Notes: generated from the letters alone by a model not told the origin. A DNA stretch of 24,000 nucleotides from Methanocella paludicola SANAE (GCF_000011005.1 NC_013665.1:1265437-1289436); one strand, 5' to 3'. Shown: positions 1,755-22,207, counted from the stretch's first letter. Translations and numbers: made by a program.

Positions 1755-2726
1755 TTAGATCCGGCTTCTGCTGTCGCCTGAACTTTTCTTATTCAAGAGA
1801 TAAGCATTCGAGAAGTAAGAGACCATGGCTATGAAAAGGGCCGCTCCTATGGTAAGCCCTACGGCATCGCCCCAGTTTCCAAGTTTCACGCCTGAGGTGA
1901 CGATATCTATGGGAGCGCTCAGCATGACCAGCGGCGCCGTGCCGGCAGCCGGCTTCCCAAAAGCCACGAGTGCCAGCACTATAAAATCCTCGAATGCGTG
2001 GAACGCAACGCTTGCCCACAGGGATTTTGTAGCATAGAACAGGTATCCCAGGATCAGGGCTATGGGGAAGATGCTAAGGAAATACAGCGGCTCGACGCTC
2101 CCCGTAATGAATTTCGGTAACACGTGGACGGCCACGAAGAATATCGATGCAATAGGAAGCGCCCACAGGATACCGTACTTTTTCGTCAGCATGTTCTGCA
2201 CATAGCCACGGAATAGTATCTCCTCGCCGAATCCGATGGCGAGAGTACCTATGGCCATCAGGACGAAAGATAATGCGATCGCTGTAAGGCTAAATGAAGT
2301 GATGCCGAACGCCTCGAACGAGACGGCGCCGATGAGCAAAAGTATCCCAAATAGCGGGATGGTCAAGAACAAATTAAATCCCAGCCCGGAGAGAATCTGC
2401 TTCGGAGTTTCCCGTCGGATATCCAGCCCGAACTCCTTCCACGAGAATTTTATCTTATCGACCTTCGTAAGAAACAGCCAGGAGACGAAGATGAACGCCG
2501 CGTTCTGCAGCAGAAGGATGGCGAACGTTACCCAAATATTACCCAGGGCAGCGGCGATGGCGATGGCTGCCTGCTGCGAGTCCTGTATGGCCGCATGATA
2601 GTAAACATTGATACCGATGATCACGGCGGCGTTCGTGGCAAAAGCAGCTATCATTATGATAACAAATAAAATGACGAGCTTCAAACCTGTCATAAATTTT
2701 TCATTTTTTGCTATCGGTGAGGCCAT
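1755..2726 (-). CDS. CPBP family (CAAX/Abi-type) glutamic intramembrane protease
   Basis: The protein is polytopic and hydrophobic. It carries the CPBP signature motifs 'GFGEEILFRGYVQN' (EExxxR), 'FFVAVHV' (FxxxH) and 'SVAFHAFEDF' (HxxxD/N-like). Confidence 0.85.
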   Translation of the reverse strand: MASPIAKNEKFMTGLKLVILFVIIMIAAFATNAAVIIGINVYYHAAIQDSQQAAIAIAAALGNIWVTFAILLLQNAAFIFVSWLFLTKVDKIKFSWKEFGLDIRRETPKQILSGLGFNLFLTIPLFGILLLIGAVSFEAFGITSFSLTAIALSFVLMAIGTLAIGFGEEILFRGYVQNMLTKKYGILWALPIASIFFVAVHVLPKFITGSVEPLYFLSIFPIALILGYLFYATKSLWASVAFHAFEDFIVLALVAFGKPAAGTAPLVMLSAPIDIVTSGVKLGNWGDAVGLTIGAALFIAMVSYFSNAYLLNKKSSGDSRSRI

Positions 2727-5290: not shown

Positions 5291-5464
5291 TTATAATACA
5301 ATATCGATGGATTTATACAATGCTGAAAATCCTGTCAAAAAGGGCCATATCTTTGGTTTCAAAAACATGATCGGTCTGAACTCCTTCCACGAGAATTTAA
5401 CCTTATCGGCCTTCGTCAGGAACAGCCAGGCATTTTTAGTGAACGTTAATATCCTTATACTCAT
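5291..5464 (-). pseudogene. Fragment of a CPBP-protease paralog (short relic ORF)
   Basis: Nt 5378-5430 match nt 2430-2482 (inside the CPBP gene 1755..2726) at 48 of 53 positions without gaps. The minus-strand reading gives 'WLFLTKADKVKFSWKEF', versus 'WLFLTKVDKIKFSWKEF' in the intact gene. The surrounding 57-codon ORF (ATG 5464, stop 5291) has no further CPBP motifs. Confidence 0.6.
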
Positions 5465-7489: not shown

Positions 7490-7848
7490 TCAAATTAAGG
7501 CGTTGACCTCTAATTCCCTGATAATGCGGGCGACGGCGTCTTCGGCGTCTTCGGCGTCTTGCTGCCCGTGATGACCATCTTGCCGCTGCCGAATAACAGC
7601 ACGGCGACCTTTGGCGGGTCCAGCCTGAGCACGAGGCCGGGGAACTGCTCGGGCTCATATTCGACGTTCTCGAGCCCGAAGGCAATGCAAACGGAGTTCA
7701 GGTTGAGCAGGCACCCCAGGTCAGCCGACGAGACAATGTTCTGCACGGTGGCCTGCGGCTTCGGCTTTACTTCGATACCGACGCTATTCATTTTACTGAA
7801 CACCTCATCAAGGCCCTTGCCGACATCCGCGACAATGGAAAGAGCTGG
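7490..7848 (-). pseudogene. tbp: TATA-box-binding protein relic: end of repeat 1, linker and repeat 2 only, with a frameshift near the C-terminus
   Basis: The minus-strand reading '..ADVGKGLDEVFSKMNSVGIEVKPKPQATVQNIVSSADLGCLLNLNSVCIAFGLENVEYEPEQFPGLVLRLDPPKVAVLLFGSGKMVITGSK' is colinear with helix 2 of repeat 1, the linker and repeat 2 of archaeal TBPs. After 'GSKTP' the listed frame gives 'KTPKTPSPALSGN*'. The adjacent frame gives 'EDAEDAVARIIRELEVNALI*' (stop 7490-7492), which matches the canonical TBP C-terminal helix. The first repeat (roughly 65 aa) is absent and an in-frame stop lies at 7852-7854. Confidence 0.75.
7534..7560. repeat. Perfect 9-bp tandem repeat x3 (cggcgtctt) inside the TBP relic
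   Basis: Three identical units were read directly at 7534-7542, 7543-7551 and 7552-7560. The TBP frame change maps at or next to this tract. Confidence 0.95.
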
Positions 7849-7943
7849 GCATTAATAAGTCTACGCTCTGGTATATCCAGAAAAACCTCCGCGAGGGCAA
7901 GAAGGCCAAGCTATACGATAAGGTCAAGGCTAAAATTTCTTAA
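7833..7943 (+). pseudogene. Start-less copy of a small HTH-like ORF (paralog of 14861..14983)
   Basis: The frame reads '..RQWKELGINKSTLWYIQKNLREGKKAKLYDKVKAKIS*' (stop 7941-7943). It parallels 'RRQGLSINKSTLWHIQKNLLHGKKVKLYDKVRAKIV*' encoded at 14861..14983. There is no ATG/GTG/TTG in frame back to the stop at 7704-7706. The nucleotide homology starts at about 7849, where the TBP homology on the other strand ends. Confidence 0.5.
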
Positions 7944-7971
7944 TGTTACTCTTTGCTTGTTTTTACATTAG

Positions 7972-8049: not shown

Positions 8050-8071
8050 AGAGAGAGAGAGAGAGAGAGAG
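8050..8071. repeat. (AG)11 dinucleotide microsatellite, a polypurine/polypyrimidine mirror repeat
   Basis: Read directly: agagagagagagagagagagag at 8050-8071. It ends on the G of GTG 8071 and lies 12 nt upstream of ATG 8083 of the first kinase gene. Confidence 0.95.
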
Positions 8072-8082
8072 TGGCGTTTGCC

Positions 8083-10644
8083 ATGAAAGGCTCCGGGGAG
8101 TTGAGGGCTTTTATCGATGGGTTTTTGGGAAGCGTTCCCGGGGCGTTCATCGTTCTCGATAAGGAGTGGCGTCTTGTCTACTTGAATAGCGATGCCCTGC
8201 GGTTATTCACTGGTAATAATGAATCGCTGATAGGACGGCCGCTCGAGGAAGTATATCCGAGACGGTTTAGCCACCTGATTTCTCCTCAGACGATACGGGG
8301 ACTATTAGAGGGTAAAGAAAATACCGATGACAGGTACTCGAACGATTTTCGTAAATGGTTCAGGATATCGGCATATTCTACCGATTCTGGCATCTTCATC
8401 CGGCTTGAAGATATTACGCTGGAAAAGGCCGCGAACCGTTCGCGGATTATTAACCAGTTCTCGGTTGATCGTGCCGGGGATATGATTCTCTGGTTTAAGC
8501 CCAATGGCCATATAATTTATGCGAATGAGACTTCGAGCAAATCGCTAAAATTTGATCGGAGAGAACTGGCGAGCATGATGGTGACGGATATCGATCCGTC
8601 TTTCACGGACAATAAGTGGGCCGCATTCGTCGAAGACCTGAGAACGAGGGACTCGGTGGTCTACGAGTCGAGCCTCCGGGCCAGTAACAGGTCTTTCATC
8701 CAGGTGGAAGTGTCCTGGAATTACATGGTTTATTATGGTGAAGAATACCTGATCGCGTCCGCACGGGATATCACCGAGCGCAAGCGTGCTGAGAAGGCGT
8801 TACGCGAAAGTGAGGAGAAGTATAGGGTTCTTGTCGAGAACGTTAACGATATCGTCTGGCAAATAGACGAGAAATTTGTCTACACATACATTAGCCCGCA
8901 AATTTACGACGCCTGGGGCTATACTCCTGAGGAGGTCGTCGGTAAGACCCCGATGGATTTTATGCCCCCTGATGAGGCAGAGCAAGTATCTAAGTCCCTG
9001 GAAGATGTGGCCAGAAAAAGGGACAAGTTGTTTATGTATGAGAATCAGCACATCCGTAAAGATGGCCGAATCATGTATATGGAGGTGTCCGGCCAGCCGA
9101 TCATCGATGAGAACGGCGTTTATAGGGGATACCGGGGCGTCGCCAGAGACATCACCGAGCGTAAGCATACCGAAGTGGCGCTGCAAAAGAGCGAGGCAAG
9201 CCTTGCCAGAGCCCAATTCCTCGCTCATATTGGGAACTGGAGTTGGGATTTAGGCACGAACGAGCTCGAATATTCGGATGAATGTTACCGTTTGCTCGGG
9301 TATAAGCCCGGTGAAATTAAGCCCGTTCCCTTCGACTTCTTCACTTCCCACATCCACCCTGATGATAAAGGATCCTTTTTTAATGCTATCCGTGAATCCA
9401 TTCAGGACGTTAAGCCATTCAGCATCGACTTCCGTTTAGTCAAACCTGATGGTACTATCGTCTATATGCACGACGATGGGGAGGTGCAATATGATGCCTG
9501 GGGTAAACCAGTCAGGATGTTCGGGACGGTGCAAGACATCACCGAGCACAAGCGGGCCGAAGAGGCGCTGCGGGAGAGCGAGGAAAAGTTCCGAAAATTT
9601 TTTGACATACCGTTGATAGGTGCGGCTATTACTTCGCCGGAGAAGCGATTTATTCTGGTCAACGATAAATTGTGTGAAATGTTCGGCTATTCCCGAGAGG
9701 AACTGTTAAAAACTAGCTGGGATAAAATTACCAGTCCGGAAGACATGCCCAGGAATTTGGACGCCTTTAAAAGGCTAATGTCTGGCGAGATAGATACCTA
9801 TACTTTTGAAAAGCGGTTCATCCATAAAAATGGCAGCATCGTTTATGTGTTATTGTCTGTCGAATGTATTCGCCGTGAGGATGGGACGGTCGATTATTTG
9901 ATATCCAACTATAACGATATCACCAAGCGCAAGCATGCTGAGATAGCTTTACAAGAGGCAAAAAATCAGGCGGAAATATACCTGGATTTAATGGGACATG
10001 ATATTAATAACCTGAACCAGATCGCTCTCGGATATCTTGAACTGGCCAACGACCAGCTAAAGGATGATAAGGTCAGAGAGCTTATTTCAAAGCCCGTCGA
10101 GGTCATAACGAGCAGCTCCAACCTGATAGAGAATGTGAGAAAGCTCCAAAAATCAAGGACACACGGGCTTAGGATAGAAGCTATAGATTTGAACGATGTG
10201 CTGTCCAGGTTGAAAACACATTACTCTAAAGTGCCCGATAAAGAGGTCCATATTGAGCTTACTTCGAGTCCAAATGCTTTTATCATGGCTAACGGGCTTA
10301 TTAACGACGTATTCTCCAATCTTATAATAAATGCGATCAAACACTCCAACAATGCTAAACCCGTAAATATCTGCATACGATTAGAACGTGTAACCGGGGT
10401 AAAGGAACTTATCAAGGTGGCTATCGAGGATAACGGCCCGGGCATCCCGGACGAAATTAAGAATAAACTGTTCACCCGCTTCCAGAGAGGCAATACCAAA
10501 GCGACCGGTAAAGGCCTTGGATTATATCTCGTGAAGACTCTGCTTGACGACTTCCACGGAAAAGTATGGGCAGAAGATCGTGTTCAAGGGGATTATACCC
10601 GGGGCAGCAGGTTCGTGGTCACGCTGCCGGCCGTAGAAAAGTGA
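8083..10644 (+). CDS. Soluble multi-PAS sensor histidine kinase (5 PAS/PAC modules + H-box + HATPase_c)
   Basis: Five PAS-like modules each end in a 'DIT..K..E..L' linker (EDITLEKA, DITERKRAEKAL, DITERKHTEVAL, DITEHKRAEEAL, DITKRKHAEIAL). The H-box is 'EIYLDLMGHDINNLNQ', the N-box 'NLIINAIKHS', G1 'EDNGPGIP' and G2 'GKGLGLYLV'. No TM segment is present. The ORF opens at GTG 8071, but I prefer ATG 8083. Confidence 0.9.
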   Translation: MKGSGELRAFIDGFLGSVPGAFIVLDKEWRLVYLNSDALRLFTGNNESLIGRPLEEVYPRRFSHLISPQTIRGLLEGKENTDDRYSNDFRKWFRISAYSTDSGIFIRLEDITLEKAANRSRIINQFSVDRAGDMILWFKPNGHIIYANETSSKSLKFDRRELASMMVTDIDPSFTDNKWAAFVEDLRTRDSVVYESSLRASNRSFIQVEVSWNYMVYYGEEYLIASARDITERKRAEKALRESEEKYRVLVENVNDIVWQIDEKFVYTYISPQIYDAWGYTPEEVVGKTPMDFMPPDEAEQVSKSLEDVARKRDKLFMYENQHIRKDGRIMYMEVSGQPIIDENGVYRGYRGVARDITERKHTEVALQKSEASLARAQFLAHIGNWSWDLGTNELEYSDECYRLLGYKPGEIKPVPFDFFTSHIHPDDKGSFFNAIRESIQDVKPFSIDFRLVKPDGTIVYMHDDGEVQYDAWGKPVRMFGTVQDITEHKRAEEALRESEEKFRKFFDIPLIGAAITSPEKRFILVNDKLCEMFGYSREELLKTSWDKITSPEDMPRNLDAFKRLMSGEIDTYTFEKRFIHKNGSIVYVLLSVECIRREDGTVDYLISNYNDITKRKHAEIALQEAKNQAEIYLDLMGHDINNLNQIALGYLELANDQLKDDKVRELISKPVEVITSSSNLIENVRKLQKSRTHGLRIEAIDLNDVLSRLKTHYSKVPDKEVHIELTSSPNAFIMANGLINDVFSNLIINAIKHSNNAKPVNICIRLERVTGVKELIKVAIEDNGPGIPDEIKNKLFTRFQRGNTKATGKGLGLYLVKTLLDDFHGKVWAEDRVQGDYTRGSRFVVTLPAVEK

Positions 10645-10679
10645 TTATTTTATCCTCGTCGTATTAGTGGTTGCAGGGT

Positions 10680-10695
10680 CCTGAAAATATAAATA
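10680..10695 (+). promoter_or_regulatory. BRE/TATA-like box shared by two kinase genes (copy 2, upstream of 10729..12354)
   Basis: This is the same 16-mer as at 7972-7987. The tataaata ends 33 nt before ATG 10729, which would give a very short leader. Confidence 0.5.
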
Positions 10696-10728
10696 CGAGG
10701 TGTTCATTTCACTTTATTATAATATGTT

Positions 10729-12354
10729 ATGAGCCCAAAATTCGCTTCCGCCACCCCATCGGATGTCAATAAGACGAGGGAACAACTTTTATCGGAATTG
10801 CACGAGCTTAGGGCTCAAGTAGATATTCTAAGGGAAGCCGGGGTTAAGAGTAAGGACATGGCTGAAGACCTGCGGGAAAGCGAGAAAAATCTATTATTAG
10901 CCCAGAGAATTTCCCATCTTGGATTTTGGGTTTGGGATATTGACAAGGACGTTCTGGAATGGTCGGATGAGGTTTATCGTATACTTGGATTGACGCCGCA
11001 AGAATTCCGGCCTAGTTATGAGTTGTTTTTAAGCTTTGTACATCCAGAAGACCGGGGACTGGTAAGTATTGCCGTTCAAGATGCCCTGGATGGAAAAAAG
11101 CCTTACGGCATCGACTGGCGTATTCTAAGAAGGGGTGGCTCAGCGGGCTACGCTCATAGCGAAGAAGTAGTATCATACTCGAATGGCAAGCCTGTTCGCA
11201 TGATCGGAACTATTCTGGACATCACCGAACTCATGCGGGCCGAGGAAGCGTTGCGTAACAGTGAACGCCTGTATCGTGCCATTGGGGAGTCGATCGACTA
11301 TGGCGTGTGGGTGTGCGCCCCCGATGGGCGTAACATCTATGCGAGCGAGTCGTTCCTGAAGCTGGTCGGGCTTATACAGCAGCAATGTTCTGACTTCGGG
11401 TGGGGCGATGTGCTCCATCCTGACGATGCTGAGCGCACCATCGAAGCGTGGAAGGAGTGCGTACGCGCCGAAGGGACATGGGATATAGAGCATCGCTATC
11501 GGGGGGTTGACGGTCAGTATCATCCTATCCTGGCGCGCGGCGTGCCGGTGCGCGATGAGCATGGTAAGATCATATGCTGGGCAGGTATCAACCTCGATAT
11601 CAGCAGGCTCAAGCGGACAGAGGCGGAACTGAAGGAAGCCAAGGCGCAGGCCGAACTATACCTGGACCTAATGGGCCACGATATTAATAACATGAACCAG
11701 GTGGGCATTGGCAACCTCGAGCTCGCCCTCGAGACGTTAAAGGAAGATGGCAGGGTCAAGAAAGAAGACCTGGAGCTTCTGGAGAAGTCCCTGCATGCCA
11801 TCACGGATAGCAGCCGGCTTATCGATAATGTGAGAAAGCTCCGGTCGACTATGTCCAAAGAACATCAGCTCCAGCCGATCGACCTGAAAGAAGTCCTCCT
11901 GGGCGTTAAAGAACAGTTCTCGAAGACCAACGGCCAAGATGTCACGATCAATTATACGCCCATCGAGGGCCACGTCATGGCGACCGACCTGGTCAGGGAC
12001 GTATTCATCAACATCGTCGGGAATGCCATCAAGCACTCCGACGCTAATAAGCCCCTGGAGATAAACATAAGCCAGTTCCACATCTATGGCACCGACGAGA
12101 GTTACCACAAGGTCATCATCGAGGACAACGGCCCCGGCATACCGGACGAATTGAAAACTCGTATATTCAACCGGTTCGAGCGGGGCAACACGAAGGCAAA
12201 GGGGAAAGGCCTGGGACTCTTCCTGGTGAAGACGCTCGTACATGATTTCAACGGCAAGATATGGGTGGAGGACCGTGTCCCCGGCGACCATACGAAGGGC
12301 GCCAGGTTCATGGTCGTGCTTCCGGCGGTTGAAAAGGTTGACGAGAAGCCTTAA
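10729..12354 (+). CDS. Soluble PAS sensor histidine kinase (2 PAS modules + H-box + HATPase_c)
   Basis: The N-terminus is coiled-coil-like. The PAS modules end in 'DITELMRAEEAL' and 'DISRLKRTEAEL'. The H-box is 'ELYLDLMGHDINNMNQ', with 'NIVGNAIKHS', 'EDNGPGIP' and 'GKGLGLFLV'. Confidence 0.9.
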   Translation: MSPKFASATPSDVNKTREQLLSELHELRAQVDILREAGVKSKDMAEDLRESEKNLLLAQRISHLGFWVWDIDKDVLEWSDEVYRILGLTPQEFRPSYELFLSFVHPEDRGLVSIAVQDALDGKKPYGIDWRILRRGGSAGYAHSEEVVSYSNGKPVRMIGTILDITELMRAEEALRNSERLYRAIGESIDYGVWVCAPDGRNIYASESFLKLVGLIQQQCSDFGWGDVLHPDDAERTIEAWKECVRAEGTWDIEHRYRGVDGQYHPILARGVPVRDEHGKIICWAGINLDISRLKRTEAELKEAKAQAELYLDLMGHDINNMNQVGIGNLELALETLKEDGRVKKEDLELLEKSLHAITDSSRLIDNVRKLRSTMSKEHQLQPIDLKEVLLGVKEQFSKTNGQDVTINYTPIEGHVMATDLVRDVFINIVGNAIKHSDANKPLEINISQFHIYGTDESYHKVIIEDNGPGIPDELKTRIFNRFERGNTKAKGKGLGLFLVKTLVHDFNGKIWVEDRVPGDHTKGARFMVVLPAVEKVDEKP

Positions 12355-12383
12355 GGCTTATAAAAAACTCCTAATAATAACAA

Positions 12384-14723
12384 CTATTCAATGGCCGGCA
12401 GCATGACCACGAACCTGGCGCCCTTCGTATGGTCTCCATTCACCCGGTCTTCCACATACACCCGGCCATTATAGCTTTCTACGAGTGACTTGACCAGGTA
12501 CAATCCGAGGCCCATGCCCCGGGCTTTATTTGTACCCTTCAGCGTCCGGTTGAATATCCTGTCCTTCGACTCGTCCGGTATGCCCGGCCCGTCGTCCTCC
12601 ACGATCACGCGGCAATACTGCCTGTCATTATCCTTTACTATATCCAGGCCAACGATGATGTCCGCTTTGTCCCCGGTATGCTTGACCGCATTGCTTACAA
12701 GGTTGGCGAAGACATCGTGTAACAGCTCATTTGCCCGGACAATACAACCCTCATGACCATTTACATTTAACATTACACGCTTATTGGGAATAGCTCCATA
12801 CTCCCCCTGCACGTCCACAAGCATCCTGCTCACGTTTATTTTCTGGGTCTGGAACACGCCCTCACGGTGCTTTTGCAGCTTCCTCACATTCTGGATGAGC
12901 CGGGCACTCCTCTGGAGCACCTCCACCGGCTTATTTAGCAGCCTCGCCTGCTCCTCACCCGGTGGCATGTTACTGGCTAATTCCAGGTAACCCAAAGCCA
13001 CCTGGTGCATATTGTTAATATCATGGCCCATCAGGTCGAGGTAGAGCTCGGCTTGAACCCTGGCCTTATTTAACTCTTCCTCGGCCATCTTGAGCGGGGT
13101 TATATCGTTGCCGATAGAAAATAGTCCGGCTACGTTACCCTCATCGTCGTAGATGGCCTTATTGGTCCAGGAGATCCAGACGAGCTCGCCGTTCTTGCGC
13201 CTGTTCTGGTGGACGTTCATCCGGTACGCTTCCGGATGCTGTAACAGGTCATCCAGCATCATGGCAAGGTTCCTGCCCGCAGAATCGGTCGCTGGAATGA
13301 TCGTCCCTATCGCGTTCCTGCCCAGGATTTCCTCCCCGGTATAGCCGAAGAACCGCTGGGCGTACTCGTTGAAATACGTGATGTTGCCGTCCCGGTCCGC
13401 CCGCAGGATGATGCTGTTGGCATTCTCAACAAGCTCCCGATACCGTTCCTTACTCTCCCTCAGCGCCCCCTCAGCCTGCTTACGCTCGGTGATATCTTCT
13501 ATGACAGCAATGATACGGGGCTCTTCATGGTCGCTATTACGCATCAATGAAACGTTCACGCGAGCCCAGATGGTCCTGCCACTCGCATGTACATAGCGTA
13601 GGTCACGCATGAATGACGAAGCCTCCCCTCTTACCAGGCGCTGGACTTCGGCAATATCCATAGCCTGATCATCCGGATGGACAATATCCTCACAGCCCAT
13701 CGTCAATAATTTTTCACGACTATAGCCCGTGATCTCGCAGAACCGATCGTTGACCGCCTGGTACCCGCGATCGACATCGGCGATGAGTATACCGGTGGCC
13801 GCATTATCGAAGACCTTACGGAACCGTTCCTCGCTCTCCTGTAATACTTTCTCGGCCTGCTTGCGTTCGGTGATGTCCCGGTCGAACGTGATCAGATATT
13901 CCTCATCCCCATACCGTGTGTAACAGGACGTGACTTCCACGGGGAACACCCGTCCGTCACTGGCCACGTGCGTGGACTCGAACTTCGTATTGTGGTCCAG
14001 CATCCTCACTGGCCACAATTCCCAGATCTTCTCCGGCGAGTAGCCAGGGTCTATGTCCCATATATGCATGGATAATAGTTCTTCCCTCGAATATCCGAGG
14101 GACCTGCACGCCGCCTGGTTCACGTAGGCGAGGCGCCCATCCTTCGTAACCCAGATGGCGGAATCCCCGAAATTATCCAGGGCGAACTGGGTGAGCTTCA
14201 ACGCCTCCTCGGCCCGCTTACGTTCGGTGATGTCCTTGAACACCGCCAGGATGGCCGACGCTCCTTTGTAGGTGAACCTCATCGCCCAGACGTCCACGTC
14301 CACAGCCCGGCCGTCGACACGGAGGTACTTCTCCTCGACAATAGGCACGGCGCTTTCGCTACCGATCATCGCATTGATACGGTCCTGCACAATTTCCCGG
14401 TAGTCGGGATGGATGATGTCCTCCAGTGCCTTTCCCACGACTTCGCCGGGATCCGGCGCCCCCAGGATCCGGGCCCCGGCCTCGTTGATGTAGGCGACCC
14501 TGTTACCGACGTTGACCCACATCCCGTACAATTTCTGCTCCAGTAGCTGGCGGGTCATCTCGTCATTTTTCCCTAAATCGGCTTCCAGCTGCTCTACTCT
14601 GGCCTTATATTTTTCGAGGTCTGCATTTCGGGCTTTTAGCCCGGCGATGAGCCGGTCCCTGTCACCGGAATCTGCGCTATGTGTACTGCCAGACTTCTTC
14701 CCGGGCTTGGATCTCGATGCCAT
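12384..14723 (-). CDS. Soluble multi-PAS sensor histidine kinase (4 PAS modules + H-box + HATPase_c)
   Basis: The N-terminus is coiled-coil-like. The PAS modules end in 'DITERKRAEEAL', 'DITERKQAEKVL', 'DITERKQAEGAL' and 'DITPLKMAEEEL'. The H-box is 'ELYLDLMGHDINNMHQ', with 'NLVSNAVKHT', 'EDDGPGIP' and 'GMGLGLYLV'. Confidence 0.9.
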   Translation of the reverse strand: MASRSKPGKKSGSTHSADSGDRDRLIAGLKARNADLEKYKARVEQLEADLGKNDEMTRQLLEQKLYGMWVNVGNRVAYINEAGARILGAPDPGEVVGKALEDIIHPDYREIVQDRINAMIGSESAVPIVEEKYLRVDGRAVDVDVWAMRFTYKGASAILAVFKDITERKRAEEALKLTQFALDNFGDSAIWVTKDGRLAYVNQAACRSLGYSREELLSMHIWDIDPGYSPEKIWELWPVRMLDHNTKFESTHVASDGRVFPVEVTSCYTRYGDEEYLITFDRDITERKQAEKVLQESEERFRKVFDNAATGILIADVDRGYQAVNDRFCEITGYSREKLLTMGCEDIVHPDDQAMDIAEVQRLVRGEASSFMRDLRYVHASGRTIWARVNVSLMRNSDHEEPRIIAVIEDITERKQAEGALRESKERYRELVENANSIILRADRDGNITYFNEYAQRFFGYTGEEILGRNAIGTIIPATDSAGRNLAMMLDDLLQHPEAYRMNVHQNRRKNGELVWISWTNKAIYDDEGNVAGLFSIGNDITPLKMAEEELNKARVQAELYLDLMGHDINNMHQVALGYLELASNMPPGEEQARLLNKPVEVLQRSARLIQNVRKLQKHREGVFQTQKINVSRMLVDVQGEYGAIPNKRVMLNVNGHEGCIVRANELLHDVFANLVSNAVKHTGDKADIIVGLDIVKDNDRQYCRVIVEDDGPGIPDESKDRIFNRTLKGTNKARGMGLGLYLVKSLVESYNGRVYVEDRVNGDHTKGARFVVMLPAIE

Positions 14724-14860
14724 GCTACCGCCTCGACAAAAAAATACTAGTAATCATAAGATTTAGAAACCTTATAATTATTCTGAATTAATTCTTCCAC
14801 GATGTATTATAAATATTTTATAATCAACTAAAGGCTACTTGGCCAGGCCTAATTTTAGCA

Positions 14861-14983
14861 TTAAACGATCTTAGCCCTCACCTTATCATATAACTTGACC
14901 TTCTTACCATGCAGTAAATTTTTCTGGATATGCCAGAGCGTTGACTTATTAATGCTGAGCCCCTGCCGCCGTTCCGGCGTCAT
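14861..14983 (-). CDS. 40-aa small ORF with an HTH recognition-helix-like segment, coupled to the upstream 167-aa ORF
   Basis: The ORF reads 'MTPERRQGLSINKSTLWHIQKNLLHGKKVKLYDKVRAKIV' and falls below the 60-aa track cutoff. Its ATG 14983 lies 1 nt after the TGA (14985-14987) of the upstream ORF. The paralogous copy at 7833..7943 differs largely at third-codon or conservative positions (tct/tca, cta/tta, tac/tat, gtc/gtg, aaa/aag, att/atc), which suggests protein-level constraint. Confidence 0.45.
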   Translation of the reverse strand: MTPERRQGLSINKSTLWHIQKNLLHGKKVKLYDKVRAKIV

Positions 14984-16275: not shown

Positions 16276-16321
16276 ATTTAAATCCTACTTCAGCCAATCC
16301 TATATTATTCCGGTGAATGCG

Positions 16322-17737
16322 ATGGCGCTTCGATTCTACAACACGCTCGCCTCGAAGGTTGAGGATTTTGTCCCCCTTCATGACATGGAAGTTAAGATGT
16401 ACGTCTGCGGGCCTACCGTTTATGATTATTGCCACATGGGCCATGCCCGGGCCTACGTCGTTTTCGATACCATTCGTCGTTACCTTCAGTATAAGGGATA
16501 TAAGGTCACCTATGTGCAGAACTTTACGGACGTCGATGATAAGATATTGAAGCGTGCCGCGGAGCAGAACGTGCCCCCAAAGGAGCTTGCTGAAAAGTTC
16601 ATTAACGCCTACTTTGAGGACATGGACCGGCTGAACATCCTTCGTGCGGACTATTACCCCAGGGTCAGCCAGAATCTCCCGGCCATTATCGATATGATCA
16701 AAGCCCTTGTGGATAAGGGCTATGCCTACGTGTCCGACGGCAGCGTCTACTTTAGCGTTGACAGTATGTCCGAGAAGGTCGGCGCCCTCTCGCACCAGTC
16801 TTATGATGCCCTAAAAGTCGGGGCTCGCGTTGAAGTCGATGAGCGCAAGCGTAACCCGATGGATTTCGCCCTGTGGAAGGCCTCGAAGCCCGGCGAGATC
16901 ATCTCGTGGGAGAGTCCCTGGGGTCCCGGGAGGCCCGGGTGGCACATCGAGTGCTCGGCCATGTCCATGACTACGCTGGGGCCGAATATCGATATCCACG
17001 GCGGCGGCCTGGACCTCGTCTTCCCTCACCACGAGTCGGAGATCATGCAGACCGAGGCGTATACCGGTAAGCCGCCCTTCGCAAAGTACTGGATCCATAA
17101 TGGCTTCTTACTTGTTAATAAGGAGAAGATGTCCAAATCGCTTGGTAACTTTTTCTTAGTAAGGGATGTGCTGAAGAAATTTTCGCCCGACACAGTGCGG
17201 TTCTTTATTTTGAACACCCACTACCAGAGCCCTCTCGATTTCAACGACCAGGCGCTGGAGGACGCCAGCCGGGGCCTGGAGCGCATCAAGAATGCCATTT
17301 CCGGGATTGAGGCGCGCATCAGGAGCCCTCTAGCCGGTGCCGCATCTATACCGGGTGTCCCCGAACGCCTGAGCGAAAGTAAAAAGCGATTCGAGGAGCG
17401 CATGGACGATAACCTCGATACTCGCGAGGCGCTCGCCGAGATCTTCGAGCTGACCCGGGACGTGAACCGGTGGCTCGCCGAGGGCGATATGCCCGCCGAC
17501 CAATGGAAAGAAGTGCTGGACCTTTACGGCATCTACTCGGACGTGCTGGGCATCAAGTGGACCGGGTCTATGGAGGACCTGTTCGCTTCCGAATTATTGC
17601 AGCTTATCGTGGATATCCGGGATGCGGTGAGGAAGAAAAAAGATTACGAGACTTCTGACCTGATCCGGAAGAGGCTCAAAGAGCTTGGTATAACCATTGA
17701 GGACTCGAAAGAGGGAACCAAAATAAAGCGCATATGA
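16322..17737 (+). CDS. cysS: Cysteine--tRNA ligase (class I)
   Basis: 'MALRFYNTL..MYVCGPTVYDYCHMGHARAYVVFDTIRRYL' carries the HIGH-type motif HMGH. It also has 'WESPWGPGRPGWHIECSAM' and a 'KMSKSLGNF' KMSKS motif. The start is ATG 16322; the longer ORF from 16181 overlaps the preceding gene and has no homology-like content. Confidence 0.95.
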   Translation: MALRFYNTLASKVEDFVPLHDMEVKMYVCGPTVYDYCHMGHARAYVVFDTIRRYLQYKGYKVTYVQNFTDVDDKILKRAAEQNVPPKELAEKFINAYFEDMDRLNILRADYYPRVSQNLPAIIDMIKALVDKGYAYVSDGSVYFSVDSMSEKVGALSHQSYDALKVGARVEVDERKRNPMDFALWKASKPGEIISWESPWGPGRPGWHIECSAMSMTTLGPNIDIHGGGLDLVFPHHESEIMQTEAYTGKPPFAKYWIHNGFLLVNKEKMSKSLGNFFLVRDVLKKFSPDTVRFFILNTHYQSPLDFNDQALEDASRGLERIKNAISGIEARIRSPLAGAASIPGVPERLSESKKRFEERMDDNLDTREALAEIFELTRDVNRWLAEGDMPADQWKEVLDLYGIYSDVLGIKWTGSMEDLFASELLQLIVDIRDAVRKKKDYETSDLIRKRLKELGITIEDSKEGTKIKRI

Positions 17738-17865
17738 AGTTATTTTTCATTTTATACAATTTTTTTGAATTACCTTAAAAGTTTACCCTGTTATATAAAA
17801 ATCTTGTTATAGTATCAAATAGTTCCATATTTCGGTATATTACCAGAAGTGCTTTTCGCAAATCA

Positions 17866-18363
17866 GTTTGGTCGGTATCACGAACCTCTCCAAAGGAAAT
17901 AAACCACTAATTTTTCTTTTTAGATTTTTCTCACGAAGCCTCTAAGCCTCGAACTCACCGTCAATGCCCGAACTCTCGAATACTCAGGGCAGTGCTCTAA
18001 GTCTCTAACGCGCTAACCCGAAAAGAAGTCTCTAAGTCTCTAAATCACGTTTGAAACGCTAAACGGTGGAGCACGAACACTCTAAGAGCCCGGTCGTTCC
18101 CCAGCATTTTGGGTGTTCGGGCCGTTGGCGATTTAGCCGAGCCTTAGAGAGTTAGTGCTATTTCGTTTAGCGTTTCGAACGTGTATTCGAGTTTTCGAGC
18201 CTTCTTTTCGGGTTTGAGGCTTCGGGCGTTCGTGCAATGCCCGGAGTATTAGGGAGTTCGTGCGTTGACGGTGAGTTCGAGGCTTAGAGGCTTAGTGAGA
18301 AAAATCTAAAAAGAAAAATTAGTGGTTTAATTCCTTTGGAGAGATTCGTGATACCGACCGAAC
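17866..18363. mobile_element. 498-bp foldback (whole-length inverted-repeat) element with a 6-bp flanking direct repeat, MITE-like
   Basis: The outer arm 17866-17967 matches the reverse complement of 18262-18363 at 97 of 102 positions with no gaps. The inner arms stay alignable with indels, for example cccgaaaagaag and cacgtt(t/c)gaaacgctaaacg on both sides, down to a roughly 45-nt centre near 18115. AAATCA abuts both ends exactly (17860-17865 and 18364-18369). No ORF of 60 aa or more lies inside. Confidence 0.6.
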
Positions 18364-18460
18364 AAATCAACGACATGTAATCAATATGACCTACAATCTA
18401 TTTGACCTCATATTAAGAACCCATAGGATACTTTAATAAATCCATAAAAAGGTTTAATAT

Positions 18461-18835
18461 TTATAAGTAACCGAACGGGTTCAGCACGCCCGTCGTCATA
18501 CGCACATGAACGTGAGCATCCATGCTGCCGGTATTGGTGATCGTATACCGTACCCCGAGCGGAGTACCCAGCACGGCCGAACCGCTCGTGATATCGTGCC
18601 CCTGTCCAGAGCCCCCAATACCCTCATGTGCCTCATCCACCGGAATATCCGAAGTGAACTTCAGTGTGACCATGCCGGGAGGCATATTATACGTTTTACT
18701 ACTACCAGGAGAAAGCGTGATGCTCTCATCGACAAGGGTCTTCTCGGCGATGACCTGGGAAAAGGTCATGCATAATAGAACAATAAGGATGATCGCAAGG
18801 ACTGCATAGACTATATAGTTAGTCGATTTGGCCAT
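18461..18835 (-). CDS. Small membrane-anchored protein with a ~90-aa beta-rich extracytoplasmic domain (hypothetical)
   Basis: Starting at the internal ATG 18835 gives 'MAKSTNYIVYAVLAIILIVLLCMTF' as an N-terminal anchor, followed by a soluble domain ('SITLSPGSSKTYNMPPGMVTLKFTS..VRYTITNTGSMDAHVHVRM'). No family was recognised. Confidence 0.55.
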   Translation of the reverse strand: MAKSTNYIVYAVLAIILIVLLCMTFSQVIAEKTLVDESITLSPGSSKTYNMPPGMVTLKFTSDIPVDEAHEGIGGSGQGHDITSGSAVLGTPLGVRYTITNTGSMDAHVHVRMTTGVLNPFGYL

Positions 18836-18930
18836 GAGCGAAAGAACGATCTTAAATATTATAAATCTAGCTCCCGGGCCAGCGCTCAAGACAATAACGG
18901 TTTTATACTCTATACGCTAACAAATAAAGG

Positions 18931-21798: not shown

Positions 21799-22135
21799 TT
21801 TCCATTCTCGTTATGCCGCCGTTGAGTGTCCTTAACCACAGGGGCAGAGAGAGCGCAGAGTTCACAGAGTTTTCTTATAGATGGAGGCTCAGAGGGCACA
21901 GGGGACGGGTTTATAACATTCCTGGGGCACGGAGTTGTTAGGGGCACTGGCGAGGATAAACCTGCTAAATTGTTTATTGGTCAACCGTGCCTCGATTAAC
22001 TCTGTGCCCCAGGAAAACCAATAAACCGGGCTCCGTGTACTTCGTGACTCAAATTATAAAAGAAAAACTTTGTGAACTCCCGTGCGCTCTGCGCCCCTGT
22101 GGTTAAGGACACTCAACGACAGCATAACGTGGAAA
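21799..22135. repeat. ~337-bp foldback inverted repeat (second palindromic intergenic element)
   Basis: 21809-21845 matches the reverse complement of 22093-22129 at 35 of 37 positions. The arms remain alignable inward with indels, for example ttcaca(g/a)agtttt, ggtttat and cctggggcac(g/a)gagtt. The centre is ataaac (21956-21961) / gtttat (21972-21977) around a 10-nt loop. Confidence 0.7.
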
Positions 22136-22207
22136 GGCTAGAATTTTTATCAGCTAAAGCAATTGATCGCCTCGAAACGTACATGAACCTTTTACACGAG
22201 TGAGTGT

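What the first reader, a model, noticed from the sequence alone, without database searches (positions are those of the whole stretch)
17860..18369. 498-bp whole-length palindromic element with a perfect 6-bp flanking duplication, in the spacer after cysS
Seen in sequence:
- The 720-bp convergent spacer between cysS and 18461..18835 is dominated by one foldback.
- The outer 102 nt of each arm (17866-17967 and 18262-18363) are 97/102 complementary.
- The inner ~125 nt per arm are diverged but still colinear.
- The symmetry centre (about 18115) coincides with the midpoint of the element.
- AAATCA directly abuts both termini, while inverted-repeat identity drops immediately outside them.
- The arms are built from reiterated short words (ctctaag / ctcgaa on the left, cttagag on the right).
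- Each arm carries an inward-facing T-rich tract (aatttttctttttagattttt).

Inference: terminal inverted repeats plus a target-site-like duplication and no coding capacity is the signature of a non-autonomous foldback/MITE-type transposon. Alternatively it could be a locus for a ~230-bp stem long-hairpin RNA. I do not recognise it as a described archaeal element family.
Basis: partly seen in the sequence, partly recalled or inferred. Interest (0 to 1): 0.7.

Follow-up and report, generated by a model that had tools for sequence, protein, structure and literature searches.

The report
Old single-locus DNA palindrome after cysS
The 498-bp palindrome after cysS in Methanocella paludicola is real, but it looks like an old, single-locus, non-coding foldback inherited by related species, with its two arms kept alike by exchange between them and the element sometimes lost by deletion, rather than like an active multi-copy mobile element.

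Summary
The element is 498 bp (17866-18363). Its arms are 221 nt long and 85% complementary; the outer 102 nt match at 97/102. AAATCA abuts both ends, and there is no ORF over 34 aa.

The host is Methanocella paludicola SANAE.

The MITE reading is not supported as a family claim.
- Exact-terminus scans of species-representative genomes, JGI metagenomes and IMG/VR gave only chance hits.
- There is no match in plasmid or phage records, and no Rfam match.

The same junctions carry a homologous palindrome in related uncultured Methanocella.
- L027 holds a complete 449-bp copy whose arms are only about 50% identical to the window's arms, yet 96% complementary to each other over the outer 78 nt.
- L021, L022 and L023 have contigs that run into or break inside the element.
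- About 25 of 84 aligned outer-arm positions changed on both arms together. This shows concerted evolution of the arms.
- L025 keeps only a 20-nt end remnant, and L026 keeps about one arm. Both are deletion derivatives, not clean empty sites.
- More distant relatives (L024, L009) lack the element.

The block best conserved between the two versions is an inward-facing oligo-T tract in each arm. This fits a bidirectional archaeal terminator between the convergent genes.

Best reading: an ancient one-off insertion, kept palindromic by arm-to-arm gene conversion, dispensable, and possibly serving as a terminator.

The parts
16319..17737 (+). cysS (cysteine--tRNA ligase), the upstream convergent gene
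   Evidence: Pfam tRNA-synt_1e 6.9e-134. The start was set from the translation. M. paludicola BAI61364.1 sits in the same 90% cluster as P0001, the best hit (94% identical to the window protein).
17738..17859 (.). Left AT-rich spacer carrying cysS's own T-runs (17743-17747, 17760-17766)
   Evidence: It is 85% identical to L025 over aligned positions. L027 has only 33 nt here.
17860..17865 (.). Left AAATCA direct repeat (target-site-duplication-like)
   Evidence: Homologous positions read ATATCA in L025 and TGATTA in L027.
17866..17967 (.). Left outer arm, 97/102 complementary to 18262-18363; the terminus is GTTTGGTCGGTATCACGAA
17911..17929 (+). Oligo-T tract TTTTTCTTTTTAGATTTTT (three T5 runs), facing transcription that comes from cysS
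   Evidence: It lies within the block best conserved between the window version and the L027 version.
17968..18086 (.). Left inner arm, diverged (about 74% to its partner) but colinear
18087..18142 (.). Non-complementary centre (56 nt)
18143..18261 (.). Right inner arm
18262..18363 (.). Right outer arm; the terminus (reverse complement) is GTTCGGTCGGTATCACGAA
18300..18318 (-). Mirror oligo-T tract (three T5 runs on the - strand), facing transcription that comes from the 124-aa gene
18364..18369 (.). Right AAATCA direct repeat
   Evidence: AAATCA is also found at this position in L022, L023, L025 and L026.
18370..18460 (.). Right AT-rich spacer, with the 124-aa gene's own T5 run (18446-18450 on the - strand)
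18461..18835 (-). 124-aa hypothetical membrane protein, the downstream convergent gene; no Pfam family
   Evidence: 100% identical to M. paludicola WP_128859974.1 (P0121) and contained in the 142-aa BAI61365.1 (P0147), on the 2,957,635-bp chromosome.

Best explanation
This is a single-locus, non-coding DNA palindrome. It entered the cysS 3' intergenic region once, in the ancestor of the M. paludicola group of Methanocella. The entry was most likely an insertion that duplicated AAATCA. Since then it has been inherited vertically at that site.

Shown:
- A homologous palindrome sits at the same junctions in relatives.
- The arms evolve in concert, most strongly in the outer 80-100 bp. Many positions differ between species but remain complementary within each element.
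- The inner arms have escaped this homogenisation and diverge.
- The element is dispensable and deletion-prone. L025 keeps only 20 nt of one end, and L026 keeps about one arm.

Inferred:
- The arms are kept alike by intramolecular recombination or gene conversion between them, not by selection on an RNA.
- The L025 deletion arose by slippage between short GTTYG direct repeats at the base of the hairpin.
- The only likely present-day activity is transcriptional. Each arm presents three T5 runs to the RNA polymerase arriving from the neighbouring convergent gene. The element would therefore act as a back-up bidirectional archaeal terminator in the window, and probably as the primary one in L027.
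For: Host and context:
- The 124-aa protein is 100% identical to a M. paludicola protein on the 2,957,635-bp chromosome.

Orthologous copies at the same junctions:
- L027 carries a complete 449-bp palindrome 33 nt after cysS, with homologous flanks (window CTTTTCGCAAATCA|GTTTGG against L027 TCTTTCGCTGATTA|GTCCGG). Its outer 78 nt are 96% complementary and its fold has z = -21.6.
- L021 has 200 nt of the right arm at 83-86% identity, and the contig ends near the centre.
- L022 and L023 contigs end 22 and 28 nt into the right terminus, next to the same AAATCA flank.

Concerted evolution:
- Window arms are only 48-53% identical to L027 arms, but each element's outer arms are 95-96% alike.
- Of 84 aligned outer columns, 50 are paired and unchanged, 25 are paired in both elements but with a different base, and only 9 are one-arm differences.
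- RNAalifold counts 41 of 111 pairs changed on both sides and kept.
- Against L021, the outer 102 nt have 13 sites where both window arms agree and differ from L021, versus 5 arm-to-arm differences.

Loss:
- L025 reads ATATCA-GTTCGTGATACCAACCAAAC-AAATCA. Both flank repeats are kept and about 478 bp are gone. The junction lies in GTT(C/T)G, which occurs at the left terminus and 20 nt from the right end.
- L026 aligns significantly only to the right arm end plus flank of L027 (score 52, shuffle maximum 32).

Outgroups without the element:
- L024 has cysS and the 124-aa homologue convergent with an 18-nt spacer.
- L009/L010 have cysS followed 44 bp later by the TPR gene.

Single copy.

Terminator reading:
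- T5 runs lie at 17911-15, 17917-21 and 17925-29 (+) and mirrored at 18300-18318 (-).
- The block AAMCACTAA...TTTTTTTAGAKTTTTC is the part best conserved between the two diverged versions.
- Archaeal RNA polymerase terminates at oligo-dT tracts (established knowledge, not tested here).
Against: - Copy number in the rest of the M. paludicola chromosome could not be examined at low stringency. The collection scans need an exact 19-mer and missed even the orthologous copy in L021, so diverged paralogues would be missed too.
- I cannot verify that the M. paludicola genome, apart from a masked window, was in the scanned genome collection.
- Window and L021 arms are more alike (169-173 of 206) than four-fold degenerate sites of neighbouring genes (219/345; p < 1e-8). 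They also have far fewer indels than the adjacent spacer. That points to constraint, or to more recent shared ancestry of the element, neither of which a purely neutral relic predicts.
- Host-gene and element relationships disagree. L025 and L026 are 93.5% identical in cysS but carry remnants of different versions. Recombination among lineages therefore blurs the count of events.
- The AAATCA pair is perfect only in the window. It is 5/6 in L025 and unrecognisable in L027.
- Terminator function is inferred from sequence only. In the window both genes already have T-runs before the element.
Confidence: 0.55

Rival explanations
1. It is a member of a non-autonomous foldback/MITE transposon family. 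It would be mobilised in trans by a transposase that recognises the GTTYGGTCGGTATCACGAA termini and duplicates 6 bp on insertion.
For: - Whole-length inverted repeat, perfect AAATCA on both sides (chance about 6e-4 to 9e-4) and no coding capacity.
- L025 keeps both flank repeats around a terminal remnant, which could also be read as an excision footprint.
- The window-L021 elements are more alike than neutral sites in flanking genes. Transfer of the element alone would produce that.
- A second, unrelated whole-length palindrome lies 3.4 kb away.
Against: - No other copy or matching terminus was found anywhere searched.
- The element sits at the identical junction in lineages with 13-17% nucleotide divergence.
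- No clean empty site was found.
- A profile of the arms does not detect the second palindrome.
- No transposase with these ends was found.
Confidence: 0.13
2. It arose in situ without transposition, by inverted duplication (template switching) of a word-repeat-rich terminator spacer. The AAATCA pair would be coincidental or a by-product. Everything else is as in the best explanation.
For: - It is single-copy and locus-bound (same calls as above).
- The arms are made of slippage-prone 8-nt-spaced words.
- The flank repeat is perfect in only one lineage.
Against: - Inverted duplication does not produce flanking direct repeats, and 6/6 by chance is below 0.001.
- AAATCA on the right is shared by both diverged versions, and the left flank is 5/6 in L025.
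- The outgroup spacer in L024 shows no precursor of the arm sequence.
Confidence: 0.15
3. It is a selected functional element whose palindromy matters. Two versions of this idea are possible. In one, the DNA forms a cruciform or carries a protein-binding array, with 16 inward-pointing CNCKAA words per arm. In the other, a long hairpin RNA acts as a regulator or insulator between the convergent genes.
For: - The architecture is conserved in two versions that are only about 50% identical: 450-500 bp, near-perfect outer arms, diverged inner arms, T-tract, GTYYGG termini.
- The arms are more conserved than four-fold sites between the window and L021.
- The words show strict polarity.
- It has persisted although long palindromes are generally unstable.
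Against: - It has been lost in two related lineages.
- No Rfam family matches.
- The T-tracts inside each arm should stop read-in transcription.
- Mismatches between the arms are not G-U biased on either strand.
- Paired changes are equally expected from gene conversion.
- The inner arms and centre decay freely.
Confidence: 0.15

Closest known systems
Prokaryotic MITEs (for example Sulfolobus SM1-SM4, Neisseria Correia elements, enterobacterial ERIC/IRU); from my own knowledge
   Same: Small, non-coding, intergenic, with terminal inverted repeats and a short flanking direct repeat. It can fold as a hairpin and can carry terminator-like signals.
   Different: - MITEs are defined as multi-copy families derived from, or mobilised by, an IS element. 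Here only one locus is found and no partner IS.
- The inverted repeat spans the whole 498 bp rather than 20-50 bp at the ends.
- The element is orthologous across species rather than polymorphic by insertion.
Eukaryotic Foldback (FB) transposons; from my own knowledge
   Same: Very long inverted arms built from reiterated short sub-repeats, little or no central unique sequence, and non-coding.
   Different: FB elements are eukaryotic, multi-copy and kilobase-sized, and are linked to a transposase-bearing form. No homology or mobility was shown here, so the resemblance is architectural only.
Large genomic palindromes kept alike by arm-to-arm gene conversion (primate sex-chromosome palindromes, plastid inverted repeats); from my own knowledge
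   Same: The arms stay nearly identical within a genome while diverging between species (concerted evolution). There is a hint that the centre has flipped: L021's right inner arm is closer to the window's left inner arm at 14 sites versus 7 (p = 0.09).
   Different: The scale is 0.5 kb rather than 10 kb to Mb, it is non-coding, and the host is an archaeon. Homogenisation is limited to the outer 80-100 bp.
Human palindromic AT-rich repeats PATRR11/17/22 (~190-600 bp), and engineered long palindromes in E. coli (PMC1851657, PMC3315005; listed)
   Same: A single-locus, near-perfect palindrome of similar size that can form hairpins or cruciforms and is prone to deletion.
   Different: PATRRs are AT-rich and known for translocations. 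This element is 47% G+C, carries word arrays and T-tracts, and has persisted through speciation.
Archaeal intrinsic terminators (oligo-dT tracts; bidirectional in convergent spacers); from my own knowledge
   Same: Several T5 runs on the non-template strand face each incoming polymerase. The outgroup L024 has only an 18-nt AAAAAATTTTAAATTTTC spacer at the same place.
   Different: Archaeal terminators need no hairpin and are tens of nt long. The 498-bp palindrome is far more than termination requires.

Membership tests
Prokaryotic MITE | Terminal inverted repeats | tested here: met
   The arms are 221 nt at 85%, and the outer 102 nt match at 97/102.
Prokaryotic MITE | Target-site duplication flanking the element | tested here: met
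   AAATCA is 6/6 in the window, with a chance below 0.001. It is 5/6 in L025 and not recognisable in L027.
Prokaryotic MITE | Small size and no coding capacity | tested here: met
   The element is 498 bp and its longest ORF is 34 aa.
Prokaryotic MITE | Multiple copies dispersed in the genome or in related genomes | tested here: not met
   - No second copy in the window.
- None in 206 kb of fetched loci, about 70 kb of them from Methanocella relatives.
- Exact-terminus scans of GTDB representatives, JGI metagenomes and IMG/VR gave only single chance hits.
- No plasmid or phage match.
- Limitation: only exact 19-31-mers were scanned, and the rest of the host chromosome was not searched at low stringency.
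Prokaryotic MITE | A cognate autonomous IS or transposase with the same termini | tested here: inconclusive
   No locus with the terminus next to a transposase was found. Diverged termini would be missed.
Prokaryotic MITE | Presence/absence polymorphism with a clean empty site (single copy of the target) | tested here: not met
   - Relatives without the full palindrome keep element ends (L025, L026).
- The outgroups L024 and L009 have unalignable or very short spacers.
Described structured RNA family (Rfam 15) | A match to a covariance model | tested here: not met
   There is no hit at gathering thresholds in the window and none at E <= 1 in 17700-18500.
Archaeal intrinsic (oligo-T) terminator, bidirectional | Runs of at least 5 T on the non-template strand downstream of each convergent gene | tested here: met
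   Three T5 runs per arm lie in the correct orientation, in the block best conserved between the two versions.
Archaeal intrinsic (oligo-T) terminator, bidirectional | Transcript 3' ends map to the tracts | not testable with these tools
   This needs Term-seq or RNA-seq of M. paludicola.
Palindrome maintained by arm-to-arm gene conversion | The arms are more alike within a genome than orthologous arms are between genomes | tested here: met
   - Arm identity is 95-96% within an element against 48-53% (L027) or 83-86% (L021) between elements.
- There are 25 double changes against 9 single changes in the outer arms.
- 41 of 111 pairs are compensated.

The most novel reading that the evidence does not exclude
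The palindrome is a selected chromosomal cis-element of the M. paludicola group. It would be a roughly 0.5-kb cruciform- or hairpin-forming structure. Its near-perfect outer stem, polar arrays of 16 CNCKAA words per arm and inward T-tracts would be kept by selection. A possible role is as a protein-bound insulator or terminator between convergent genes, or as a source of a structured RNA. Arm-to-arm conversion would be the means of maintenance rather than the cause.
Probability: 0.15. Interest if true: 0.7.

Novelty: new variant of a known kind. Interest (0 to 1): 0.42.

Why it matters
- Long perfect palindromes are usually regarded as short-lived in prokaryotic chromosomes. Here a 0.45-0.5 kb palindrome has survived species-level divergence in an archaeal lineage.
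- The data show maintenance and decay side by side: concerted evolution of the outer arms, and two different deletion derivatives. Methanocella may therefore be a natural system for studying palindrome dynamics in archaea, including hairpin processing, Mre11-Rad50 and Hjc.
- It is a practical caution for annotation. Terminal inverted repeats plus a flanking direct repeat are not enough to call a MITE.
- Such palindromes break short-read metagenome contigs exactly at their ends, as seen with L021, L022 and L023.
- If the T-tracts do terminate transcription, this would be a case of an inserted foldback taking over the terminator role between convergent genes.

Tried and rejected
- **Terminus scans.** The exact terminus GTTYGGTCGGTATCACGAA was scanned in genome contigs, metagenome contigs and viral contigs. 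It gave 4, 4 and 5 single hits in unrelated organisms. BLAST of the element against them shows at most 19-29 nt of similarity, so these are chance hits.
- **Internal 31-mer.** A scan of viral contigs gave 0 hits.
- **Plasmid and phage records.** blastn in distant mode found no match.
- **Rfam.** Nothing at gathering thresholds and nothing at E <= 1.
- **Exact look-ups of two window proteins.** The TPR and VTT proteins returned nothing, probably because the annotated start codons differ.
- **Relation between this palindrome and the second one at 21803-22137.** They share a 22/28 T-tract+TCACGAAG block (E = 0.2). An nhmmer profile of five arms does not detect the second palindrome, so I rejected the relation as unproven.
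- **Replication origin or terminus.** I saw no ORB-like repeats on reading the sequence. The local GC-skew profile only follows gene orientation. The genome paper places the origin at cdc6, MCP_0001 (PMC3146512). Not pursued.
- **L026 as a clean empty site.** Rejected, because it aligns significantly to the right-arm end of the L027 element. An earlier comparison with the window was marginal.
- **L025 as the ancestral state.** Rejected. The 20-nt remnant is the exact complement of the left terminus, which a later insertion could not create by chance. The palindrome is also present in at least two other lineages as distant from the window as L025 is (L027, 87% nucleotide identity in cysS; L021, 83% in the downstream genes).
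- **Flip of the centre by arm-arm crossover.** It is only suggestive: 14 sites against 7, p = 0.09.
- **The sigma-70 promoter/terminator scan.** It does not apply to archaea and was uninformative.
- **Literature.** I found no description of this element or of MITEs in Methanocella.

Full report
**1. The observation**

The window holds a 498-bp whole-length palindrome at 17866-18363.
- The repeat finder reports arms 17866-18086 and 18143-18363, 221 nt, 85% complementary, 56 nt apart.
- My own count gives 97/102 for the outer arms. Identity falls towards the centre, and the last 24 positions match at 9/24.
- AAATCA abuts both termini (17860-65, 18364-69), and complementarity ends exactly there.
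- Given the composition of the two spacers, a 6/6 direct repeat at fixed positions has a probability of 6e-4 to 9e-4.
- As single strands, both strands fold into one long hairpin, at -323 and -306 kcal/mol with z = -30.7 and -24.5.
- The word CNCKAA occurs 16 times per arm, always pointing inward and never on the other strand. The window background is 2.6 per kb.
- Each arm has three T5 runs 46-64 nt from its end, on the strand that an incoming polymerase would transcribe as U-runs.
- No ORF exceeds 34 aa.

**2. Host and context**

- The upstream gene is cysS (Pfam tRNA-synt_1e, 6.9e-134). Its true start is at 16319.
- The downstream convergent gene (18461-18835) encodes a 124-aa hypothetical membrane protein. 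It is 100% identical to a Methanocella paludicola protein on the 2,957,635-bp chromosome. The cluster listing names strain SANAE and gives BAI61364.1 for CysS and BAI61365.1 for the 142-aa form of the neighbouring protein.
- The genome paper does not mention repeats of this kind (PMC3146512).

**3. Copy number**

- The 19-nt terminus occurs only twice in the window, even with 3 mismatches allowed.
- Exact scans for it in one genome per GTDB species, in JGI metagenome contigs and in IMG/VR returned 4, 4 and 5 isolated hits in unrelated organisms. These share no more than 19-29 nt with the element.
- An internal 31-mer has no viral hit.
- Plasmid and phage collections give nothing in distant blastn mode.
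- Rfam gives nothing at gathering score or at E <= 1.
- BLAST and an nhmmer profile of five arms against the window and all 206 kb of fetched loci find only the copies described below.
- These scans demand exact words. They would miss diverged paralogues, and they did miss the orthologue in L021.
- I also could not confirm that the M. paludicola chromosome outside the window was in the scanned genome collection.

So "single copy" is the best current reading, not a proof.

**4. Orthologous loci**

I reached relatives through CysS homologues, homologues of the 124-aa protein and their cluster members.

Relatives that lack the element:
- L009/L010 (80-83% nucleotide identity in cysS): cysS is followed 44 bp later by the TPR gene. 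The 124-aa gene and the palindrome are both absent.
- L024 (124-aa homologue 59% identical): cysS and that gene are convergent, with an 18-nt spacer AAAAAATTTTAAATTTTC and no palindrome.
- M. conradii (L007) has a different neighbour.

Closer relatives, about 83-89% nucleotide identity:
- L021 carries 200 nt of the right arm at the same place, at 83-86% identity, with the contig ending near the centre.
- L022 and L023 contigs stop 22 and 28 nt into the right terminus, next to the same TGATTT flank. This is what a de Bruijn assembler does at a perfect terminal inverted repeat.
- L027 contains a complete 449-bp palindrome 33 nt after cysS, with homologous flanks. Its outer 78 nt are 96% complementary, its inner arms are about 76% complementary, and its fold has z = -21.6.

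**5. Two versions, one architecture**

- The L027 arms are only 48-53% identical to the window arms, and BLAST does not even connect them.
- Both elements nevertheless share the following features:
  - GTYYGG termini;
  - a CACGAA word near the end;
  - the block AAMCACTAA...TTTTTTTAGAKTTTTC, which holds the T-tract;
  - a CTCACSGTYAA block;
  - near-perfect outer arms and decayed inner arms.
- In 84 aligned outer-arm columns, 50 are paired and unchanged, 25 are paired in both elements with a different base, and 9 are single-arm differences.
- RNAalifold on the two full elements predicts 111 pairs, 41 of them changed on both sides and kept.
- Against L021, the outer 102 nt show 13 sites where both window arms agree against L021, and only 5 arm-to-arm differences. 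The inner 105 nt show 3 and 27.

The arms therefore evolve in concert in their outer part and independently in their inner part. Paired changes of this kind are expected both from selection on pairing and from gene conversion between the arms. The five outer mismatches give no strand-consistent G-U signal. The inner stem and centre decay freely, and the element is lost in some lineages. I therefore favour DNA-level homogenisation.

**6. Losses**

- L025 is the closest CysS hit (94% amino-acid identity). Its left spacer is 85% identical to the window's over aligned positions.
- L025 reads ...ACATATCA-GTTCGTGATACCAACCAAAC-AAATCAACGACATG.... Both flank repeats are there, and between them lie only the last 20 nt of the right arm.
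- The terminus is itself GTT(C/T)G...CGAAC. The pentamer GTTYG therefore occurs as a direct repeat at the very left end and 20 nt from the right end. A slippage or microhomology deletion across the base of the hairpin gives exactly this product. That mechanism is an inference.
- The reverse reading, with L025 as ancestral, is untenable. The remnant is the exact complement of the left terminus.
- L026 is 99% identical to L023 and 93.5% identical to L025 in cysS. It has a 166-bp spacer that aligns significantly only with the right-arm end and flank of the L027 version (score 52, shuffle maximum 32). It is a different, one-armed derivative.
- No clean empty site with a single AAATCA was found.
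- The L025/L026 discordance (sister cysS genes, different element versions) shows recombination among lineages at this locus. The number of independent events is therefore uncertain.

**7. Constraint**

- Window and L021 arms are identical at 169-173 of 206 positions, with one 1-nt indel.
- Four-fold degenerate sites in three neighbouring genes are identical at 219/345. The binomial p-value is below 1e-8.
- The adjacent spacer is 50% identical once gaps are counted.
- This argues for some constraint, or for younger shared ancestry of the element than of its flanks. The flanking spacers between the window and L025 are also fairly conserved (76-85%), so I treat this as unresolved.

**8. Function**

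- In archaea, oligo-dT tracts suffice for intrinsic termination (established knowledge).
- The T-tract block is the best-conserved part between the two versions, and it faces each convergent gene.
- In the window both genes have their own T-runs before the element (17743-47, 17760-66; 18446-50 on the - strand). The element would then be a back-up terminator.
- In L027 the left spacer is 33 nt with no T5 run, so the element's T5 and T7 tracts are the first that cysS transcripts meet.
- I therefore commit to this: the element is a dispensable relic whose only likely activity is bidirectional termination.
- A full-length hairpin RNA is unlikely, because read-in transcripts should stop 46-64 nt inside each arm.

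**9. Verdict**

A single ancient insertion remains the best account of the AAATCA pair.
- The element is a new variant of known kinds of palindromic repeat. It resembles MITEs in its ends, eukaryotic Foldback elements in its arms, and gene-converting palindromes in its dynamics. It belongs to no described family.
- Interest is moderate, because long-term persistence and concerted evolution of a 0.5-kb palindrome in an archaeon is unusual.

Noticed in passing
window 21803-22137 (outer arms 21809-21854 / 22084-22129): There is a second, unrelated whole-length palindrome in the convergent spacer after the F420-0:gamma-glutamyl ligase gene. Its outer 46 nt are 89% complementary, its ~167-nt arms are 75% colinear, and its RNA MFE is -191 kcal/mol. 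The arms are built from GGGGCAC/CACAGGGG words. It is absent from relatives L009, L021 and L026, where the spacers cannot be aligned, so there is no clean empty site. A 22/28 T-tract+TCACGAAG block resembles the first palindrome, but an nhmmer profile of the first palindrome's arms does not detect it.
   Followed up: partly
window 17738-18889 versus L009 2244-2246: Relative to L009/L010, the window has about 1.15 kb extra between the cysS stop and the TPR-gene promoter. The extra DNA comprises the spacers, the palindrome and the 124-aa gene. L024 has the 124-aa gene but not the palindrome, so L009 probably lost the gene.
   Followed up: partly
window 17766-17800: The left-spacer block CTTACCTTAAAAGTTTACCCTGTTATATAAA is well conserved in L025. 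It contains a TATA-like TTATATAA (17791-17798) that could start a short transcript running into the left arm and ending at its T-tract. This is untested.
   Followed up: no
L025 and L026 (cysS 3' region): L025 and L026 are 93.5% identical in cysS but carry remnants of the two different palindrome versions and different right spacers. This points to homologous recombination between Methanocella lineages with a breakpoint at the end of cysS.
   Followed up: partly
L026 (JGI 3300018489), whole contig: cysS, the VTT gene and other genes are split into fragments in this contig (two CysS pieces of 276 and 108 aa). Homopolymer lengths also differ from L023. This looks like frameshift errors from error-prone reads, so small indels in this contig should not be trusted.
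   Followed up: no
window 8071-14723, with 7837-7948 / 14856-14967: There is a cluster of three multi-PAS histidine kinase paralogues (8071-10644 +, 10729-12354 +, 12384-14723 -) with many internal PAS-boundary repeats. The C-terminal ends of the two convergent kinases (10729-12354 + and 12384-14723 -) form a 225-nt, 70% inverted repeat. The regions outside the cluster form a 112-nt, 78% inverted repeat, as if from an inverted duplication.
   Followed up: no
window 2430-2482 and 5378-5430: A 53-nt direct repeat, 91% identical, with copies 2.9 kb apart. One copy lies inside the ORF 1755-2726 (-) and the other lies in a short ORF or intergenic stretch. It may be a gene fragment.
   Followed up: no
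L005 7432-7494: In this relative (CysS 89% amino-acid identity) the contig ends 63 nt after cysS, in sequence unrelated to the window spacer (…GAGGGCACGGAGCGCACTGAGGG). Another repeat may sit at the same site.
   Followed up: no
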